From: Escherichia phage mio
Length of the DNA: 64,000 nucleotides
Sequence record: MN850631.1
Direction: 5' to 3' (one strand)
Part shown: in pieces, positions 350 through 50,492 of the stretch
Layout: the number at the start of each line of letters is the position of its first letter
Position numbering within the stretch: position 1 is the first letter of the stretch
The notes under the pieces: generated by a model
Databases searched by the model: none
What the model saw: only the letters and a program-made list of their open reading frames with translations
What the model was told of the DNA's origin: nothing
Translations under genes and position numbers: made by a program

Positions 350-360
350 AATATCTTAAG

Positions 361-394
361 AGCCTCCTTAATTGGGGGCTTTTTAATTTTTATA
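361..394 (+). terminator. putative intrinsic terminator
   Basis: AGCCTCC-7nt loop-GGGGGCT stem (one G-U pair) followed by TTTTTAATTTTTAT. Confidence 0.45.
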
Positions 395-399
395 AAATT

Positions 400-1650
400 T
401 ATCGGTTGTCCCAACCTCTGGGTCACCATCATATGTGAATAAAATATCTACCCTTCTTAACAACCTTCTTAATCTTACTCTCTATATAGTTATATAGTAC
501 TATATAGTATCTTAGTATCTATCTAGTGGTCTTAATAGCCCATCTGTATAACCCTTCTAAACACTCTTCTAACAAGCCTTCTTAACAGCCTATACAATCA
601 CCTTAACCATCCCTCTACACCTTCTTAGAAGCTCCTATACACCTCTTAATCTCTATGTCAGCTATGACACTCTCTATAGGTGTTCACTAGGTATTACTAA
701 GCCTCTATATAGACTGTTTTAACAAACTTAACAGGAATATCTTTACAGACCTTATCTCACAAGGTCTAACACGGTACTAACAAGGTATCTTATAAGCCTG
801 TTTCTACCTGTATTTTTAAAAGACTGTCTAGGTAATTATTCAGAATTTTAAAATTTTTATAAAATAGGACTATCAAGTCATTTTTTAGGGTCTTTGAAGG
901 AACTCAAAAATATCTGTAGAAGATGTATATCTGCTTGGTAGCCCTTAACAGCTCCCTTACAAGTACTTTGCAAAATTTTAAAATATCCTTAACAATCTCT
1001 TAACGGCTACTACATCCTCTTAACATCTCTTCAGAGGTCTTAACAGATTCTTAACAGAACTAACAAGGCTGTAACAAGTTCTTAACAGATGATACATGGT
1101 CTTTATAGTCTCTTAACAGATGACTAACAAGAGCTAACAAGTTAATTTTTAAGAGTTATTTTGTTAAGATAATTAACAAGTTTCTAACAAGTCTTTAATC
1201 TTTTTAACAAGCTATTAACATGGTCACTATCTCTGGTCTTATCGTTCCCTTTCCCTCTTAGTGATTCTTTAAATAGCCCTCTTAAAAGCTCTCTATAGCT
1301 CTTTGTAAGCTCTTTTAAGCCTCTTCCTAGTAATTACACCCCAACTATGTAGAAAGCTCTTTATAAGGCTTTACAGAGGCTTTAAAGGCTATGTCAAAGA
1401 CTCTTACAAGGCTTTTACGTGGTCTTAACAGAGATTTAACAAGGGACTAACAAGTTGCTAACAAGTGTCTTAAAAGCATAACTATGTAGGGATTGTTAAG
1501 AAATTGTTAAGAAAATGTTAAGGGGGCTAGCATTTACGTAACTTTTAAGCTACTTCAAAGTAACTTTATAGCCCCTTTAACATACTTTTAAGACACTAAC
1601 AAGCCCTTTTTAGTTATTCACAAGAATACTAACGAGATGATAAAGCTTAC
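400..1650. repeat. ORF-free array of short direct repeats (YTAACAR(G) more than 25 copies; TATAGT/CTATAG clusters; AT-rich AATTTTAAAAT stretches)
   Basis: Motifs CTTAACAG, CTAACAAG, TTAACAAG recur on the plus strand, densest 990-1220 and 1425-1475; no ORF of 60 aa or more in any frame between 349 and 2007. Confidence 0.6.
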
Positions 1651-1916
1651 ACCCTTATAAGATTCTTTTAAGGCTCTGGGAAGCTTTATAAAGGACTTTT
1701 TAGGGTGAGTTAATGCAATCCCTTAAGTTAGGTTGATAAGGCCGTTATAGGGCTTTATAGAGCGTTTAAATGGTTGCCCTTCCCTTTCGGGTTATGGGCT
1801 TATATTTAAGTTGATTTGATAAAAGGCTATAGAGTAAGCTATAGAGTTATTGCTTTTTAAGGTCTGATAAGATTCTGGAAAGGAAAGGGAAAGGATTGTA
1901 TAAGGATTGGATAGAC

Positions 1917-1997
1917 GTAAAAAAGCCCCTATGAGATAGATTCTATCGAATCAATATGAAGGGGCTATATAAAGGTATCTGGGGCTAAATAGCCCCG
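1917..1997 (-). terminator. putative terminator region at end of leftward early gene array
   Basis: Hairpin GGGGCTA-AAT-TAGCCCC (1981-1997) and AGCCCCT...AGGGGCT (1924-1966) followed by T-run on the minus strand, just downstream of stop at 2007. Confidence 0.4.
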
Positions 1998-2006
1998 CTG
2001 CGTCGA

Positions 2007-2255
2007 TTAGTTAGTGCCTTCTTTGTCGTAGTACAGGGAGACAATTTTTTCACCCCAATAGTGAAAAGTGTAACCATCTTTAAGAACTTCCTGTTTTGTT
2101 TCTTTCCAGAACTCATCAGAAGGATTATAGTCTTTTATGGTCTGACTGATAAGACCTTTCACCATTTCAAAGGCGTTGTCAGTGCCTACAAGGTCAAATT
2201 TAACATCCAGAGAGGAAAAACCGAACTCGTTAACAGTAGCGCGGATAGTTGCCAT
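2007..2255 (-). CDS. hypothetical early protein (82 aa); track ORF 2007..2513 trimmed
   Basis: ATG at 2253-2255 preceded by AGGAGA RBS in conserved element; longer track ORF reads through the intercistronic element. Confidence 0.55.
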   Translation of the reverse strand: MATIRATVNEFGFSSLDVKFDLVGTDNAFEMVKGLISQTIKDYNPSDEFWKETKQEVLKDGYTFHYWGEKIVSLYYDKEGTN

Positions 2256-2322
2256 TTTTGAATCTCCTAGTTTAAGGGTTTTATTTAGTGGGGAGGTTAT
2301 CGCCTCCCCGTTGATTAGTAAT
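2256..2322 (-). promoter_or_regulatory. conserved intercistronic element, hairpin type A
   Basis: Core CATTTTTGAATCTCCTAGTTTAAGG..TTAGTGG plus perfect stem GGGGAGG-TTATCG-CCTCCCC (2290-2309) then GTTGATTAGTAATTTAC. Confidence 0.5.
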
Positions 2323-2586
2323 TTACTGCATGTTGGCGTATGTTGCAAGCCTTTTTTCGTTGTATTTTGTAAGAATCTCACAAGATAAAACATCGTAATT
2401 TGTAACAGCGTTGCCTTTGTCGAGGTCAAAGAATCCAAATGTTTTACCATCTTTGAATCCGACAACTTCGTAAGACTCTTTGATGATTTCACCATTGAAC
2501 AAATCGCTTTCAATGCGGTGTAATAATGCTACGTTTTCTTTGTCGGTTGCAATTTGTAAAAGTGTGGTTAATTCTACGTTTTTCAT
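2323..2586 (-). CDS. hypothetical early protein (87 aa)
   Basis: ATG at 2584-2586, RBS GGAG; flanked by conserved elements. Confidence 0.55.
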   Translation of the reverse strand: MKNVELTTLLQIATDKENVALLHRIESDLFNGEIIKESYEVVGFKDGKTFGFFDLDKGNAVTNYDVLSCEILTKYNEKRLATYANMQ

Positions 2587-2652: not shown

Positions 2653-3183
2653 TTACAGATTTTTGATTGTCTCGTCAATATCTTTTTCAATATCTTTTAA
2701 AGTTTTTTCTAAGTTCTTGATATTGAACGTTAAACCTTCACCTAGAGTCTTAGAGTAACCGCTAGGGCGTAAATCATGCAGCTTGATTTCTTCCACATTG
2801 GATAAGTTTACCATCTCACCATTTGCAGCATAGGCTATAGATACAGTGTTTTCAGGCGAGTTGTAAAATTTGTTCAAGGACTTGATAGAACGTTCATAAG
2901 CCATTTTATAACCGTTTAAAAGGCTTTTAACGTGATTGTGAACGTTTTTACACTCATCTAGATAAATCTCTAAGAATAACGGTAATAATTCCGCTACAGC
3001 TTGCATAAAGTGAGAAACTACAACAGTAGAAACATTACGACGATGGACGTAATAAGCCCCGTTTTCTGATTTGGTGATTGTTGCAAAATGTACACCATTA
3101 CAACGGAATTCATAGGTATCTTTAACAGGCTTAGACATAACACTATTTGAACGAATGAAGTTGATAGCTTTAAACTTGTTCAT
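2653..3183 (-). CDS. hypothetical early protein (176 aa)
   Basis: ATG 3181-3183 with AGGAGA RBS in conserved element. Confidence 0.6.
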   Translation of the reverse strand: MNKFKAINFIRSNSVMSKPVKDTYEFRCNGVHFATITKSENGAYYVHRRNVSTVVVSHFMQAVAELLPLFLEIYLDECKNVHNHVKSLLNGYKMAYERSIKSLNKFYNSPENTVSIAYAANGEMVNLSNVEEIKLHDLRPSGYSKTLGEGLTFNIKNLEKTLKDIEKDIDETIKNL

Positions 3184-3404
3184 TTTTGAATCTCCTAGTT
3201 TAAGGACTTTACTTAGTGGGGAGGTTATCCCTCCCGTTGATTAGTAATTTACTTGTTTTGATATCTGATTGCAAGCAATTTTTTAAGCTTACCTATAAAG
3301 AATCTTTTAAGTTAATCCCTTTTAAATAAACCCCCCTCGAACAAAGTTACCAATGTCAATAGGGATTGTCAACACTTTTTTAAAAGTTTTTTGTAAGTTG
3401 TTGA
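3184..3404 (-). promoter_or_regulatory. extended intercistronic region: type A element plus additional promoter-like hexamers
   Basis: Type A core and GGGGAGG-TTAT-CCCTCCC hairpin at 3184-3250; minus-strand TTGACA hexamers at 3354-3359 and 3368-3373; 221 bp gap versus ~65-95 bp elsewhere. Confidence 0.4.
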
Positions 3405-3746
3405 TTAACTGATGAATATTTTTTCAGGTTTTACGTAGCTGATACGCTGATTTTTTAGTAGGCTATCCCATAACAAGGCGGCAATGTGCCCATATCCGGC
3501 CTCACGCAGCCCCTTCATCGTTTCAACTCGACTCTCAAAACGATTTGCGTAATACTCGCTATTAAGTGTCGTTTTGTTCCCTTCGTTATCTGTATGGATG
3601 ATTTGCATCACTTGAAAGGGGCTGACATCCTCGCCTTTGTTCCACTGCTCAAAGTATTTTAGGCACTGCATAGGTGACATCTTATCACTGACTTGAGTTG
3701 ACCAAGATGAATTTTCTTTATTGGTAATTACGGTTACATAAGCCAT
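3405..3746 (-). CDS. hypothetical early protein (113 aa)
   Basis: ATG 3744-3746 with RBS in conserved element. Confidence 0.6.
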   Translation of the reverse strand: MAYVTVITNKENSSWSTQVSDKMSPMQCLKYFEQWNKGEDVSPFQVMQIIHTDNEGNKTTLNSEYYANRFESRVETMKGLREAGYGHIAALLWDSLLKNQRISYVKPEKIFIS

Positions 3747-3835
3747 TTTTGAATCTCCAGTTTAGGACTTTACTTAGTGGGGAAGGTCATTCCCTCCCCG
3801 TTGATTGACAATTTACAGACTTTTATCAGGCTTGT
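3747..3835 (-). promoter_or_regulatory. conserved intercistronic element, hairpin type A
   Basis: Core CATTTTTGAATCTCCAGTTTAGGACTTTACTTAGTGG plus GGGGAAGG..TCCCTCCCC then GTTGATTGACAATTTAC. Confidence 0.45.
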
Positions 3836-4069
3836 CTAGTCTTTTTCAATGATAATTTCATATTGACCATCAACACTGTCAAAATAGATTCCATCGTCAT
3901 CTTCTGTCTTAAAGTAACATTGTATGTCATCACTGGCGGGGTAGTCTTGTCTTGCTATCTGACAAACTTGAATAGCATTTTCTTTACTTCCTGTGAACTC
4001 CTCAAGCCCTTTAAAATCGCATGAATGACCATTACAGATGGAAAGGATGAGGTAAACGGTTGTAAGCAT
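3836..4069 (-). CDS. hypothetical early protein (77 aa), Cys-containing, acidic
   Basis: ATG 4067-4069; upstream spacer 4070-4132 lacks the conserved core (divergent element). Confidence 0.5.
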   Translation of the reverse strand: MLTTVYLILSICNGHSCDFKGLEEFTGSKENAIQVCQIARQDYPASDDIQCYFKTEDDDGIYFDSVDGQYEIIIEKD

Positions 4070-37991: not shown

Positions 37992-38248
37992 GTAAGCCTC
38001 TTTTAAGTAACTATTAAGTTTTAATCTTTTATCTTAACGTATTCTATACGTTATACTTTAAAGCTTTTTAAAAGCTATTAAATAATCTTTTAAGAGTTTT
38101 AAAGTATCTGTATAGTTAAACTGTTAAGTAACCTTTTAAGTAGAAACCCACTTCGCAAAGATTAACACCTTGTCAAGTACATTGTCAACTTGCTTTTTAT
38201 AATTTTTTGCAGTAATGTATGAGGTTAATGATTTTAGAGGGAGTAAAA

Positions 38249-48064: not shown

Positions 48065-48143
48065 TTAATCACCTCATCAGCCAAGATGGTGAGAATACCC
48101 ATAGAGAATATTAACACCATCTTAACAATCAGTCAACAAGGGA

Positions 48144-50492
48144 TTAAGCAGTTCTCACCCAAGCCATTAACTTATAGAACTGGTTAGTTACACTAAATGC
48201 TGAACCAGAACCTGTACTTCCAGTGTTACCACTCACTGTATGGCTGTGAGCACCAATACCAACACTGTGAGCATGGTTACCATTTGATGCAGCAGTACCA
48301 CTTACTGAGTGTGAGTGATTCCCAGCACTACCCGTTTGTACGGTATTCCTGTTACCATCAGAATCCCAATCACCCCTTGTACCACTTGGTTGCGCACCAG
48401 TAGTATAACCATGTGTATGGGCACCTGTTGTGTTCGTTGAACCACTCACTGAGTGGGTGTGAGCACCAGTAGTGTTAGTGGTTTTTGTTCCGTAGTCAAA
48501 AGATGAAGTAGTAGCAGAAAAACTGTGTGTGTGTGATGGTAAGTTACCAACAGCTAACGTCACAGAATCTGAACCACCAGTTGTAGCAACATCTGAACCA
48601 TTTGCTGCTGCAATTCTGATAGTTCTACCAACACCATTATTCAGGTACGTCCAAGTTAGACCAGGCAGTGCTGTATTAGGGTTAACATTACTGTTAAACC
48701 ACGTTACAATACCTACTGGATAGATTTTATTAAGGTCTGTAGAGTCACTTACTGCCTGTGCAATCTTCTGGTCAGTCTCAGTTTTAGTGTATGCACCGAT
48801 GTCTGAAGGGGATGGTTTATCTTGGTCTGTATAGATTTTAGCCCAAGTATTCTCAAATCCATACCCATCTCTCGCTGACCTATACCAAAAACCACCATTC
48901 CTATAGTTAAATTTTAATTGAGCAGATGGTGTAGAGCTACCACCCTGATACATATGGTAGACTAGTTGTGTTGAACCACCAGATTCCCCTGTAACATTAT
49001 ACAGACCAGTTCTAGCAGTCCAAGCGATACCATCACCATCACCTACCTCTGTACCAGTGCCAGAAGAGTAAGCAAACATATACCTAGAGTTTGCGTCAGA
49101 TTTCGTATAATATCTAGCATCTAAGTTAGACCAATCTGAAGGTTGAACCTGTCCAGTGATTGCTAAAGTTGCATTCATTTCAAATGCTGAACCGATGGTA
49201 AGACCTTTACCTGTTTTGTAGTTAAACAGCCTTAAGTTGTTATTGTTATCAGCATCACCATTACCAACATACCACTTAGCTGTCCCATCAGCAGATAACC
49301 CTCTAATGAACAATGTCGTTGCAGTTTTTGCTTTTAACGCAAGAGCTTCACCATCAGAGTTGATAACTTGTCGTACAGAAAATGTATTGACAACATTAGT
49401 TCTTGCAATCGTACTTAATGTTGCTGCCGGAATATATCTAGAGTCAATGTTAGTCCAATCTGAAGGTTGAACTTGACCAGTTACAGTTAGTGTTTTATTG
49501 ATATTAACACTTGTCCCTACAGTAATTTTGCCACCAGTTTTGTAGTTTTCTAGAGCTACGTTATCACCTTCATTACTATTACCAATGTACCATCTGTTGA
49601 CACCTGCGCTATCAATCGCTTTAATGTACAATGGCTGTGCAGCATTGGCATTCTGTAGCCTAATTGCCTCACCATCTTTTTTGAAAATACTTAGTTGGTT
49701 AAACGTGTTAGTGCCAGTGAAATTATTATTAGCAGCTAACTGTGCAAATCTCTGATTAGCTACTGTCTGAGTAAAGTATCTAGCATCTAAGTTGGAGAAG
49801 TCAGAAGGTTGAACTTGACCAGTAATAGCAAGGGTTTTATTAATAGCAACACTTGTGCCTAGAGTAATGGTTGAACCTTGTTCACTCTCAATTTGAACAT
49901 CTCGGCTGCCTTTAATTAGGTTCCCGATAGCCCAAACTTTTTCACTACTAGCATCCCTAGCTACAACAGCAGTGTATGCCTCACTAGCACTTGCAGGGTT
50001 TCTTAGTGTTAGAATCTCCCCATTTGCTGTAATAGTCTGCTTGACGTTAAACGTGTTTGAGTTAGCCAACCTTGCATACCTTGCATCATTCTCTTCATTA
50101 GTTCTCATCCCAAGTTCATTAGGGCTTGGCTTATTCAAAGTATGGTAAACAGTTGCTGACCTTGAAGCATCTGCAATAGTTAGTTTAAGGCCATTTGCGT
50201 TGATTTTAAAAGCCTTTAAAACATCCCCCATAGTAATCTCAGAAGAGCCTGTAGGGTCAAACACTGCCTTACCACCATAAAGTAACTTGACAATTCCTAA
50301 GTCACCAGTCATAGTGCTGCCAGCAATCTGAACAAATCTTTCAAGCTTAAAAGATGCTAAGAAGTCTTGATAGGTCATTCGACGGTCTTCATCACCCAGC
50401 ATTTCAGGTCTCTTTTTAACTCTGACATGGAGAAGGTCGTCTGAACGAATTGTGTCGATTGAGTTTAACTGACTCAATTTGTAATCTGCCAT
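48144..50492 (-). CDS. tail fiber protein with three internal repeat domains and HxH-rich C-terminal tip
   Basis: 782 aa; repeated TGQVQPSDW/F.N.D.RY units; C-terminal TNTTGAHTHSVSGS...GNHSHSVSGTAASNGNHAH. Confidence 0.7.
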   Translation of the reverse strand: MADYKLSQLNSIDTIRSDDLLHVRVKKRPEMLGDEDRRMTYQDFLASFKLERFVQIAGSTMTGDLGIVKLLYGGKAVFDPTGSSEITMGDVLKAFKINANGLKLTIADASRSATVYHTLNKPSPNELGMRTNEENDARYARLANSNTFNVKQTITANGEILTLRNPASASEAYTAVVARDASSEKVWAIGNLIKGSRDVQIESEQGSTITLGTSVAINKTLAITGQVQPSDFSNLDARYFTQTVANQRFAQLAANNNFTGTNTFNQLSIFKKDGEAIRLQNANAAQPLYIKAIDSAGVNRWYIGNSNEGDNVALENYKTGGKITVGTSVNINKTLTVTGQVQPSDWTNIDSRYIPAATLSTIARTNVVNTFSVRQVINSDGEALALKAKTATTLFIRGLSADGTAKWYVGNGDADNNNNLRLFNYKTGKGLTIGSAFEMNATLAITGQVQPSDWSNLDARYYTKSDANSRYMFAYSSGTGTEVGDGDGIAWTARTGLYNVTGESGGSTQLVYHMYQGGSSTPSAQLKFNYRNGGFWYRSARDGYGFENTWAKIYTDQDKPSPSDIGAYTKTETDQKIAQAVSDSTDLNKIYPVGIVTWFNSNVNPNTALPGLTWTYLNNGVGRTIRIAAANGSDVATTGGSDSVTLAVGNLPSHTHSFSATTSSFDYGTKTTNTTGAHTHSVSGSTNTTGAHTHGYTTGAQPSGTRGDWDSDGNRNTVQTGSAGNHSHSVSGTAASNGNHAHSVGIGAHSHTVSGNTGSTGSGSAFSVTNQFYKLMAWVRTA

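What the first reader, a model, noticed from the sequence alone, without database searches (positions are those of the whole stretch)
350..2000. 1.6 kb ORF-free region saturated with YTAACAR(G) iteron-like repeats and AT-rich blocks
No frame has an ORF of 60 aa or more for about 1650 bp, which is unusual for a compact phage genome. The region carries more than 25 copies of CTTAACAG / CTAACAAG / TTAACAAG on the plus strand (densest 990-1220 and 1425-1475), TATATAGT triplets (about 480-510), CTCTATAG-type motifs and AT-rich AATTTTAAAAT stretches (about 845-870 and 970-985). Iterons next to AT-rich blocks are the hallmark of a replication origin; other options are a packaging/terminal-repeat region, a partition-like site, or a binding array for a phage regulator. 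The same motif recurs near 38030-38140 and 48110-48135.
Basis: seen in the sequence. Interest (0 to 1): 0.7.

Follow-up and report, generated by a model that had tools for sequence, protein, structure and literature searches.

The report
Terminal repeat region of Felix-O1-like phage
This gene-free stretch is where the linear DNA of a Felix O1-type phage starts and ends: it holds the ~590-bp terminal repeat, known for this phage group, studded with a short motif placed once per turn of the double helix, which seems undescribed and probably guides DNA packaging.

Summary
Window 350-2006 has no ORF of 60 aa or more. It carries 23 plus-strand YTAACAR copies, against about 1 expected from shuffles.

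The window is a Felixounavirus. Window 937-1527 is homologous to the 580-591-bp segment that sits identically at both ends of terminus-ordered relatives. It is annotated "DTR" in phage UAB_69, and the DTR was mapped experimentally in UAB_Phi87. So the region is the collapsed direct terminal repeat plus its two non-coding flanks, closed off by the terminators of two convergent gene blocks. It shows no specific sign of a replication origin.

Three points seem undescribed:
- Both DTR boundaries carry the same composite site, TGCTW^G(N2-4)CCCTTAACA, on opposite strands and facing inward. It occurs nowhere else in the window.
- The TAACA copies share one helical phase (period 10.4 bp) across the whole DTR. 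This holds in eight genomes from three genera, despite indels.
- Motif columns are more conserved than spacers (92% against 74%). The motif family and a 13-mer just outside the DTR persist in Erwinia phage phiEa21-4.

Best reading: a packaging and end-forming signal array. The binding protein is unknown. The claimed recurrences at 38 kb and 48 kb are at chance level.

The parts
358..389 (+). Intrinsic terminator closing the upstream + strand gene block
   Evidence: 10-bp stem, 6-nt loop and T-run. Annotated as a terminator at the homologous place in KhF2.
350..936 (.). Left non-coding flank: unique DNA next to the DTR. It carries CTTCTTAA / CTTCTAA / YTAACAR repeats.
   Evidence: No ORF. 7 TAACA cores on +. 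Lag-11/12 autocorrelation 0.35-0.36 against 0.28-0.29 in coding DNA. Aligns across three genera.
481..509 (+). TATATAGT triplet, conserved in all eight aligned genomes
   Evidence: It is the only cluster of this word in the window.
759..801 (.). Almost invariant block ACAAGGTCTAACACGGTAYTAACAAGGTATCTTATAAGCCTGT, containing the palindrome CTTATAAG (789-796)
   Evidence: 98% conserved in the distant genera. CTTATAAG occurs only twice in the 64-kb window.
845..868 (.). AT-rich palindromic block; TAAAATTTTTATAAAATAG is invariant across genera
   Evidence: inverted pair with 972-984.
924..936 (+). 13-mer TGTATATCTGCTT immediately outside the DTR. Its last base is the base before the mapped end.
   Evidence: Unique in the window. 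Invariant in 8 genomes. Identical in Erwinia phage phiEa21-4 at the syntenic place and in IMG/VR locus L102.
932..950 (+). Left end-forming site TGCTT^GGTAGCCCTTAACA. The ^ is between 936 and 937.
   Evidence: Genome ends of pEP20, E9 and ZX4221. The pattern TGCTWN{3,5}CCCTTAACA occurs only twice in the window, 0 expected.
937..1527 (.). Direct terminal repeat (591 bp, +/-2 nt), present once here because the assembly collapsed the two end copies
   Evidence: Identical 580/591-bp copies at both ends of E9 and ZX4221 map here. End sequences. UAB_69 'DTR' feature at the homologous position. No second copy in the window.
1039..1141 (+). Array A: 8 TAACA cores (CTTAACAG / CTAACAAG) spaced 9-11 bp, or 31 bp across two degenerate units
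   Evidence: Rayleigh R = 0.97 at period 10.45 bp.
1173..1222 (+). Array B: 4 TAACA cores at 11/20/11-bp spacing
1424..1465 (+). Array C: 4 cores at exactly 11-bp spacing
1492..1525 (-). Array D: 3 CTTAACA copies on the - strand at exactly 11-bp spacing, ending at the right DTR boundary
   Evidence: (95% match, period 11), and (near invariant).
1516..1532 (-). Right end-forming site TGCTA^GCCCCCTTAACA, read on the - strand. The ^ is between 1528 and 1527.
   Evidence: Ends of E9, D4 and ZX4221. Pattern match. The two-site inward-facing arrangement recurs in most Felixounavirus loci.
1528..2006 (.). Right non-coding flank, with conserved blocks at 1636-1700 (including CTTATAAG at 1654-1661) and 1790-1850
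   Evidence: No covariation-supported RNA structure on either strand.
1919..1996 (-). Two hairpins closing the - strand gene block. The first is GGGGCT..AGCCCC (1981-1996). The second is a GCCCC/GGGGC stem plus T-run (1919-1965), whose loop carries a 31-bp insert (1930-1960).
   Evidence: Read from the sequence. Pairs are invariant in the alignments. Relatives without the insert have a plain small-loop terminator.

Best explanation
The region is the physical end region of a Felix O1-like (Felixounavirus) genome.

Shown, by homology to mapped genomes: window 937-1527 is the ~591-bp direct terminal repeat (DTR) that sits at both ends of virion DNA. It is collapsed to one copy in this circular-style assembly. 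It is flanked by 587 and 479 bp of conserved non-coding DNA and insulated by the terminators of two convergent gene blocks.

Inferred mechanism:
1. Replication gives concatemers with one DTR between genome units.
2. The packaging nuclease nicks the strand that reads 5'-TGCTW^G(N2-4)CCCTTAACA-3' at each boundary. These are 936^937 on the top strand and 1528^1527 on the bottom strand.
3. The result is staggered nicks 591 bp apart. Strand-displacement synthesis then gives each genome a full DTR, following the T7 paradigm.
4. The TAACA-core motifs (CTTAACAG / CTAACAAG) are the recognition elements. One copy sits in the same orientation 3-5 nt inside each nick. The other ~25 copies all lie on one face of the helix (period 10.4 bp). 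They form a loading platform that a multimeric phage protein binds or wraps, marking this DNA as the packaging start and stop. That protein could be terminase or an unrecognised small-subunit equivalent.

I put the identity as the DTR/terminus at about 0.95. I put the packaging-signal role of the motif array at about 0.5.
For: Identity of the phage:
- Best hits are Felixounaviruses at 90-93% identity over the whole region.

Termini in relatives:
- Records E9 and ZX4221 carry 100% identical 580/591-bp copies at both ends, mapping to window 937-1527.
- E9, D4, ZX4221 and pEP20 all end at GGTAGCCCTTAACA... / ...TGTTAAGGGGGC.
- The announcement paper for E9 and D4 reports direct terminal repeats from PhageTerm analysis.
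- UAB_69 annotates a 618-bp 'DTR' at the homologous site.
- UAB_Phi87 has a 608-bp DTR, shown by Bal31 digestion plus run-off sequencing. Pr103Blw has a 581-bp DTR by PhageTerm.

Same site at both boundaries:
- The composite site occurs exactly twice in 64 kb, on opposite strands facing inward, with 0 expected.
- It recurs as an inward-facing pair implying a 569-638-bp DTR in related loci.

Motif statistics:
- 23 copies against 1.04 +/- 1.0 in shuffles.
- CTAACAAG 9 against 0.04 expected, and TAACAAG 13 against 0.2.

Helical phasing:
- Spacings are 11, 20-22, 31 and 42 bp.
- The 19 + strand sites of the DTR share one phase at 10.4 bp, R = 0.75. The null 99.9% quantile is 0.68.
- The same period (10.35-10.45 bp, R 0.73-0.86) holds in 8 genomes of 3 genera with DTRs of 569-614 bp.

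Selection:
- TAACA columns are 92% conserved against 74% for other DTR columns in Suspvirus and Mooglevirus. None of 589 circular shifts reaches this difference.
- The non-coding region keeps 77-79% nucleotide identity across genera, while the adjacent gene is only 61-67% identical in protein.

Deep conservation:
- Erwinia phage phiEa21-4 has a syntenic ORF-free gap with TGTTAAGA nine times (0.07 expected), 11-bp spacing and the identical 13-mer.
- In IMG/VR, true relatives have 15-23 TAACA in the 620 nt after the 13-mer (those with the full 620 nt). Chance matches mostly have 0-4, and one unrelated coding contig has 7.
Against: - There are no reads or virion-DNA data for this phage. The ends are placed by homology only, and run-off and PhageTerm boundaries differ by 2 nt on each side.
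- No protein has been shown to bind the motif.
- The family has no recognised small terminase subunit. The genes upstream of TerL in phiEa21-4 give only DUF7217 or unknown-function hits. TerL lies outside this window.
- Most motif copies are hundreds of bp from either cut, so many may serve another purpose.
- The right-boundary site is only partly conserved outside Felixounavirus: AGCTA in SUSP2 and AGTTA in Mordin.
- In the phiEa21-4-like locus the long-range phase is weaker and has a different period (11.5 bp, R = 0.68).
- From memory, not checked here: the short-repeat arrays beside the T7 terminal repeat have no established function.
Confidence: 0.6

Rival explanations
1. Replication origin. 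The repeats are iterons for an initiator and the AT-rich blocks are the unwinding element. This could be instead of, or in addition to, the terminus function.
For: Dense direct repeats lie next to conserved AT-rich palindromes at 845-868 and 966-987. Two of the window's three exact TTATNCACA matches lie in the region. The non-coding DNA is strongly conserved.
Against: - The unit is one helical turn with a 7-8-bp core, not 17-22 bp.
- No initiator-like gene is adjacent: the six flanking ORFs have no Pfam hit and only unknown-function PHROGs.
- The DnaA-box matches are lost in sister genera, and relaxed matches are at chance level window-wide.
- The motif sits in the same orientation just inside both mapped genome ends. 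A pure origin does not predict this.
- GC skew follows gene orientation only.
Confidence: 0.12
2. The array binds a protein unrelated to terminase. Candidates are a host nucleoid protein or a phage end-binding protein. It could protect the ends from exonucleases, condense or anchor the last-packaged and first-ejected DNA, promote DTR-DTR recombination into concatemers, or silence transcription across the ends.
For: One-face phasing over more than 500 bp fits a filament or a curved nucleoprotein. The same motif occurs in phages of Escherichia, Salmonella, Citrobacter, Shigella and Erwinia, so a conserved host factor is possible. Both ends are transcriptionally closed off.
Against: The motif copy fixed at 3-5 nt from each cut, in the same orientation, ties it to end formation. 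No match to a host-factor consensus was tested except DnaA. I found no experimental hint in the literature.
Confidence: 0.18
3. The repeats have no function of their own. They are products of slippage or unequal recombination in dispensable non-coding DNA that tolerates them.
For: Copy number differs between genomes by whole units (11-12 and 22-bp indels).
Against: Motif columns are more conserved than spacers. The phase is preserved through indels in 3 genera. The motif persists in phiEa21-4, where the surrounding sequence has diverged beyond nucleotide similarity.
Confidence: 0.05
4. The region encodes small RNAs or micro-peptides.
For: It is a long, conserved, ORF-poor stretch. Some pipelines-50-aa ORFs here.
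Against: - No Rfam family comes near its gathering score.
- Consensus folds on both strands of the right flank show almost no compensatory changes apart from the terminator hairpins.
- Indels are not multiples of three, and the small called ORFs differ between records.
- Promoter-like hits are at shuffle level: 11 against 7.5 +/- 2.7.
Confidence: 0.03

Closest known systems
Short exact direct terminal repeat of Felixounavirus (UAB_Phi87 608 bp by Bal31 and run-off sequencing; UAB_69 annotated DTR; Pr103Blw 581 bp, and E9/D4, by PhageTerm)
   Same: Homologous sequence at 82-95% identity, in the same place between the same convergent genes, with the same end sequences and a similar length of 569-638 bp.
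   Different: Nothing differs in kind; this is another member. The papers I could read give length and position only. They do not describe the phased TAACA array, the shared boundary site or the conservation in Kolesnikvirus.
T7-group terminal repeat and concatemer junction. From memory, not checked here: a 160-bp TR flanked by arrays of short imperfect repeats (Dunn & Studier 1983), with a hairpin or nick-and-displacement model of TR duplication. Only the titles of the Chung, Nardone & Hinkle 1990 papers were seen, in reference lists.
   Same: A short exact DTR in non-coding DNA, short repeats clustered at the junction, and the need to make two repeats from one.
   Different: Here the repeats lie mostly inside the DTR as well as in the flanks. 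They are helically phased over the whole repeat, and one copy sits next to each cut. The DTR is about 4 times longer. There is no phage RNA polymerase promoter or known small terminase subunit. Genes at both ends point toward the ends.
Terminase recognition sites with repeated binding elements. From memory: lambda cosB R1-R3 plus an IHF site beside cosN; P1 pac with seven TGATCA/G hexamers flanking the cut; SPP1 pacL/pacR with bent DNA.
   Same: Short repeated elements beside a specific cleavage site, DNA bending or wrapping implied, and a non-coding context.
   Different: There are two cut sites about 591 bp apart, used on opposite strands, with far more copies (about 30) spread over 1.1 kb. 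The binding protein is unidentified. There are no GATC sites at all, so Dam control of the P1 kind is excluded.
Iteron-type replication origins (plasmid and lambda ori)
   Same: Multiple direct repeats next to AT-rich DNA.
   Different: The unit is 10.4-11 bp, not 17-22 bp. There is no adjacent initiator gene and no conserved DnaA boxes. The region coincides with the mapped genome ends.

Membership tests
Direct terminal repeat (DTR) region of Felixounavirus / Ounavirinae | Sequence homologous to the segment present identically at both ends of terminus-resolved genomes | tested here: met
   E9 (580 bp) and ZX4221 (591 bp) end copies are 100% identical to each other and map to window 937-1527. 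247 of 254 matching records cover at least 80% of it.
Direct terminal repeat (DTR) region of Felixounavirus / Ounavirinae | Boundaries coincide with mapped physical ends | tested here: met
   Four records from three different submissions (E9 and D4 together, ZX4221, pEP20) end at GGTAGCCC... / ...GGGGGC, which is window 937 and 1527. The UAB_69 DTR feature is 2 nt wider on each side. This is by homology only.
Direct terminal repeat (DTR) region of Felixounavirus / Ounavirinae | Experimental proof of fixed ends and terminal redundancy in a close relative | tested here: met
   UAB_Phi87: Bal31-sensitive end fragments plus run-off sequencing give a 608-bp DTR (PMC4837284). Its homologous locus has the two boundary sites 614 bp apart (L056).
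Direct terminal repeat (DTR) region of Felixounavirus / Ounavirinae | Two-fold read coverage and sharp read starts at 937 and 1527 in this phage's own virion DNA | not testable with these tools
   No reads are available. The window holds a single copy, as expected for a collapsed assembly.
T7-type end formation (staggered nicks at the DTR boundaries plus strand-displacement synthesis) | Equivalent cleavage signals at both boundaries on opposite strands | tested here: met
   TGCTW^G(N2-4)CCCTTAACA at 932-950 (+) and 1516-1532 (-), the only two matches in the window with 0 expected. This is a prediction of the model, not proof of it.
T7-type end formation (staggered nicks at the DTR boundaries plus strand-displacement synthesis) | Concatemers with one DTR per junction, and nicked or hairpin intermediates | not testable with these tools
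   Needs DNA from infected cells.
pac/cos-type terminase recognition site | Repeated short elements adjacent to the cleavage site | tested here: met
   Three - strand copies at 11-bp spacing end at the right cut. One + copy is 5 nt inside the left cut, and the arrays continue inward.
pac/cos-type terminase recognition site | A small terminase subunit or other terminase component that binds the elements | tested here: inconclusive
   The Felix O1 paper reports TerL only. In phiEa21-4 the three genes upstream of TerL hit DUF7217 or unknown PHROGs. TerL is outside this window. Binding is not testable.
Iteron-type replication origin | Tandem direct repeats of about 17-22 bp bound by a cognate initiator | tested here: not met
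   The unit is 10.4-11 bp with a 7-8-bp core.
Iteron-type replication origin | Initiator (Rep-like) gene next to the repeats | tested here: not met
   The six flanking ORFs have no Pfam family and only unknown-function PHROGs.
Iteron-type replication origin | Conserved DnaA boxes or an unwinding element | tested here: inconclusive
   Two exact boxes (434-442, 1614-1622) are not conserved across genera. The AT-rich blocks are conserved, but their role is unknown.
Iteron-type replication origin | Origin activity | not testable with these tools
   Needs marker-frequency or 2D-gel data.
Non-coding RNA locus | Match to a described RNA family, or covariation-supported structure | tested here: not met
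   The best Rfam hits are far below gathering scores. There are 4 of 82 and 1 of 74 pairs with compensatory change, mainly long-range and weak. Only the terminator hairpins are solid.

The most novel reading that the evidence does not exclude
The helically phased TAACA array is the assembly site of a previously unrecognised nucleoprotein complex. An unidentified Ounavirinae protein would coat or wrap one face of the whole ~590-bp terminal repeat. That protein would be a non-canonical replacement for the small terminase subunit in a lineage where none has been found. It would position a strand-specific nick at an identical site at each boundary. This would be a distinct way of recognising and duplicating a terminal repeat, and the complex might also serve as a telomere-like end complex or an origin.
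Probability: 0.2. Interest if true: 0.6.

Novelty: new member of a known kind. Interest (0 to 1): 0.35.

Why it matters
- It fixes where this genome really starts and ends, which matters for correct annotation and for rebooting or engineering it.
- Felix O1-like phages are widely used for Salmonella and E. coli typing, biocontrol and therapy. A defined packaging signal (DTR, boundary sites and arrays) is what is needed to build transducing or reporter particles and synthetic genomes.
- The one-face phasing is preserved through indels in three genera, and the same cut-site motif sits at both boundaries. These give concrete, testable handles on how a phage family with no recognised small terminase recognises its DNA and duplicates its terminal repeat.
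- The general phenomenon is well known, so a specialist would find this tidy and useful rather than surprising.

Tried and rejected
- Replication-origin cues. DnaA boxes: 2 exact matches, not conserved, and relaxed matches at chance. GC skew only tracks gene orientation. No initiator gene.
- RNA. No Rfam family near threshold. Consensus folds of both strands of the right flank show no real covariation.
- Promoters. The sigma-70 scan is at shuffle level. Several 'hits' are just TTAACA read as a -35 element. TATATAGT is not a genome-wide promoter word.
- Recurrences at 38 kb and 48 kb are at chance level.
- A degenerate CTYTWWAAG pattern was tried as a second motif family. It was badly chosen and uninformative.
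- Finding a reader protein. The genes upstream of TerL in phiEa21-4 give only DUF7217 or unknown-function hits.
- Literature on the motif or on this intergenic region found nothing relevant. The Bas63 PhageMaP paper holds no usable data for this locus, and no supplements are held. A search for the T7 short-repeat literature failed, so the T7 comparison rests on memory.
- Pakpunavirus PAK_P1 as a more distant comparison: the record starts at TerL, not at the ends, so I dropped it.
Full report
**What is there**

Window 350-2006 lies between a + strand gene ending at 349 and a - strand gene whose stop codon is at 2007. The only ORF of 30 aa or more inside it is a 31-aa one. Each convergent gene block ends in a terminator. 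On the + strand this is a hairpin plus T-run at 358-389. On the - strand there are two GGGGC/GCCCC hairpins at 1919-1996.

YTAACAR occurs 26 times in 457-1602, 23 of them on the + strand, out of 98 in the whole 64 kb. Dinucleotide-preserving shuffles of the region give 1.04 +/- 1.0 on the + strand, with a maximum of 5 in 1000. CTAACAAG occurs 9 times against 0.04 expected from the rest of the window, and TAACAAG 13 times against 0.2.

The sites fall into two related classes: 15 of CTTAACA(G/A) and 10 of CTAACAAG. The supposed recurrences at 38 kb and 48 kb are single copies or one spaced pair, exactly what chance gives.

**Whose genome, and what the place is**

The region matches 256 phage records, all Felix O1-like. 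The best is Bas63/JohannRWettstein at 93%. In Felix O1 itself it lies between ORF23 and ORF24.

Several GenBank records are ordered by their physical ends.
- vB_EcoM_E9 and ZX4221 each carry a 100% identical 580- or 591-bp copy at both record ends. These copies map to window 937-1527.
- E9, D4, ZX4221 and pEP20 all begin or end with GGTAGCCCTTAACA... / ...TGTTAAGGGGGC.
- The E9/D4 announcement states that PhageTerm found direct terminal repeats.
- Pr103Blw has a 581-bp DTR by PhageTerm.
- The UAB_69 record annotates a 618-bp 'DTR' at the homologous position, 2 nt wider on each side.
- For UAB_Phi87 a 608-bp DTR was shown experimentally by Bal31 sensitivity of two end fragments and run-off sequencing.
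- The original Felix O1 paper had only inferred short terminal repeats from the PFGE size, and did not mention these motifs.

The window holds a single copy. So the finding is the collapsed DTR plus its two unique non-coding flanks. Its first option, a replication origin, has no specific support.

**Anatomy that goes beyond the known DTR**

(a) The two boundaries are the same site in inverted orientation. Reading from outside to inside:
- the left boundary is CTGCTT^GGTAGCCCTTAACA on the top strand;
- the right boundary is ATGCTA^GCCCCCTTAACA on the bottom strand.

The pattern TGCTWN{3,5}CCCTTAACA occurs only at 932-950 (+) and 1516-1532 (-) in the window, with none expected. Related loci show the same inward-facing pair, implying DTRs of 569-638 bp. 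This brackets the published lengths.

(b) The motif is helically phased. Consecutive and non-consecutive spacings pile up at 11, 20-22, 31 and 42 bp. Lag-11 autocorrelation is 0.45 in the DTR against 0.28 in coding DNA. The 19 + strand cores of the DTR share one phase at a period of 10.4 bp, R = 0.75. Random placements reach 0.68 only at the 99.9% quantile, after scanning the same periods.

The same period (10.35-10.45 bp, R 0.73-0.86) is found in eight genomes from Felixounavirus, Suspvirus and Mooglevirus. Their DTRs differ in length (569-614 bp) through 11-, 12- and 22-bp indels.

(c) Polarity. Nearly all copies point the same way. The main exception is three - strand copies at exact 11-bp spacing that abut the right boundary, so the copy nearest each cut has the same orientation relative to the nicked strand. 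One further - strand copy lies at 1162.

(d) Selection. In the distant genera the TAACA columns of the DTR are 92% conserved against 74% for the other columns, and no circular shift of the mask does as well. The whole non-coding region keeps 77-79% nucleotide identity across genera. The neighbouring gene is 61-67% identical at the protein level, and even within the genus has alleles at 55-60%.

(e) Depth. Erwinia phage phiEa21-4 (Kolesnikvirus) was not among the DNA-similarity matches. It has a syntenic 1.2-1.4-kb gene-free gap at the junction of convergent blocks. That gap holds TGTTAAGA nine times (0.07 expected) at 11-bp spacing, an additional CTTCTAA array, and the exact 13-mer AAGCAGATATACA. 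This 13-mer is the reverse complement of window 924-936, the last 13 bases outside the DTR. It is unique in the window.

An IMG/VR scan for that 13-mer followed by TTAAC served as a control. Among loci with the full 620 nt available, true relatives carry 15-23 TAACA cores in the next 620 nt. Chance matches in unrelated contigs mostly carry 0-4, and one unrelated coding contig carries 7. One divergent hit (L102) is phiEa21-4-like with the same layout.

**How it most likely works**

Shown: this is the terminal-repeat region, the ends lie at about 937 and 1527, and the motif array is non-random, phased and under selection.

Inferred, from established knowledge of short-DTR phages (T7 paradigm):
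1. Concatemers carry one DTR per junction.
2. A nick on the strand reading TGCTW^G at each boundary gives the two 5' ends seen in virions.
3. Extension of the two 3' ends by strand displacement supplies a full DTR to both neighbouring genomes.
4. The identical site on opposite strands is what this model predicts.
5. The TAACA copy 3-5 nt inside each nick is the obvious positioning element.
6. The other roughly 25 copies all lie on one face of the helix. They are best explained as a cooperative loading platform, or as a wrapped or curved segment, for a multimeric protein of the packaging machinery. This would be analogous to the repeated elements of lambda cosB, P1 pac or SPP1 pac (from memory).

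Who reads the motif is unknown. The family has no recognised small terminase subunit. The genes upstream of TerL in phiEa21-4 give only DUF7217 or unknown-function hits. TerL lies outside this window.

**Rivals**

- Origin of replication. The unit size is wrong for iterons. There is no adjacent initiator gene. The two exact DnaA boxes are not conserved. Skew is uninformative. Origin activity is not excluded, because it cannot be tested here.
- A non-terminase binder (end protection, condensation, recombination, or a host nucleoid protein). This fits the phasing and the cross-host conservation, but does not explain the fixed motif copy at each cut.
- Neutral slippage products. This is contradicted.
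- Small RNA or peptide. No Rfam hit, no covariation, and inconsistent mini-ORF calls between records.

**Comparison and novelty**

As an object, this is a member of a documented class: the Felixounavirus DTR is annotated or measured at the homologous locus in several relatives. I could not find three things in the searchable literature: a description of the phased TAACA array, the shared boundary site, or their conservation into Kolesnikvirus.

I therefore rate it as a new member of a known kind, with moderate-to-low interest. It is useful for annotation, for engineering Felix O1-like phages, and as a concrete entry point to packaging recognition in a family without a known small terminase. 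It is not surprising in principle.

**Limits**

- All end positions are transferred by homology.
- The packaging role of the array is inference.
- The T7, lambda, P1 and SPP1 comparisons rest on my own knowledge, because the relevant papers were not retrievable.

Noticed in passing
whole window 1-64000: GATC is completely absent: 0 sites against 179 +/- 12.5 expected from dinucleotide-preserving shuffles. This is total avoidance of the Dam / MboI / DpnII / Sau3AI site.
   Followed up: partly
window 1930-1960; also L001, L013 (same place), L014 and L016 (other edge of the region), L009 (about window 1600): A ~26-31-bp element (TATGAGATAGATTCTATCGAATC...) sits in the loop of a GCCCC/GGGGC terminator hairpin here. 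In relatives it appears inside other GGGGC/GCCCC hairpins, while some relatives have the plain terminator. It looks like a small mobile insert that targets terminator loops.
   Followed up: no
absent from the window; L009, L013 and L015 after window ~1139; L015 after ~1166 and ~1621; L013 and L016 at ~1776: A ~22-bp palindromic mini-insert (GGGATTGGTAACAATACCAATTA) is present or absent at different sites of the terminal region in different Ounavirinae. Its length is about two helical turns, so it does not disturb the motif phase.
   Followed up: no
window 789-796 and 1654-1661: The palindrome CTTATAAG occurs only twice in 64 kb. Each copy is inside the most conserved block of a flank, 141 bp outside the left DTR boundary and 127 bp outside the right one, as an inverted ATCTTATAAG pair. 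It may be a second symmetric binding site. This is unexplained.
   Followed up: partly
window 434-442 (-) and 1614-1622 (+): Two of the window's three exact DnaA-box consensus matches (TTATTCACA) lie in the ORF-free region, but neither is conserved in Suspvirus or Mooglevirus.
   Followed up: yes
window 2253-2327, 2579-2656, 3174-3253, 3741-3850: A ~75-110-bp intergenic cassette is repeated between the small - strand genes right of the terminal region. Its hairpin reads GGGGAGG..CCTCCCC and is followed by TTGATT/TTGACA-like words. It shows up as multiple BLAST pieces and in the sequence. It probably relates to the intergenic direct repeats mentioned in the Felix O1 paper.
   Followed up: no
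window 48110-48140: ATTAACACCATCTTAACAATCAGTCAACAAG has two TAACA cores 11 bp apart plus a near-copy 10 bp further on. It lies in the short spacer next to the stop of the 782-aa - strand gene at 48144-50492. It is the only phased pair outside the terminal region and is within chance expectation.
   Followed up: partly
L017 16590-16920 (phiEa21-4); window 452-478 and 548-590: A second repeat family, CTTCTAA(G/A), is present. It occurs 9 times at 11-bp spacing in the Erwinia phage, on the far side of its putative DTR. It appears as a few CTTCTAA / CTTCTTAA copies in the window's left flank.
   Followed up: partly
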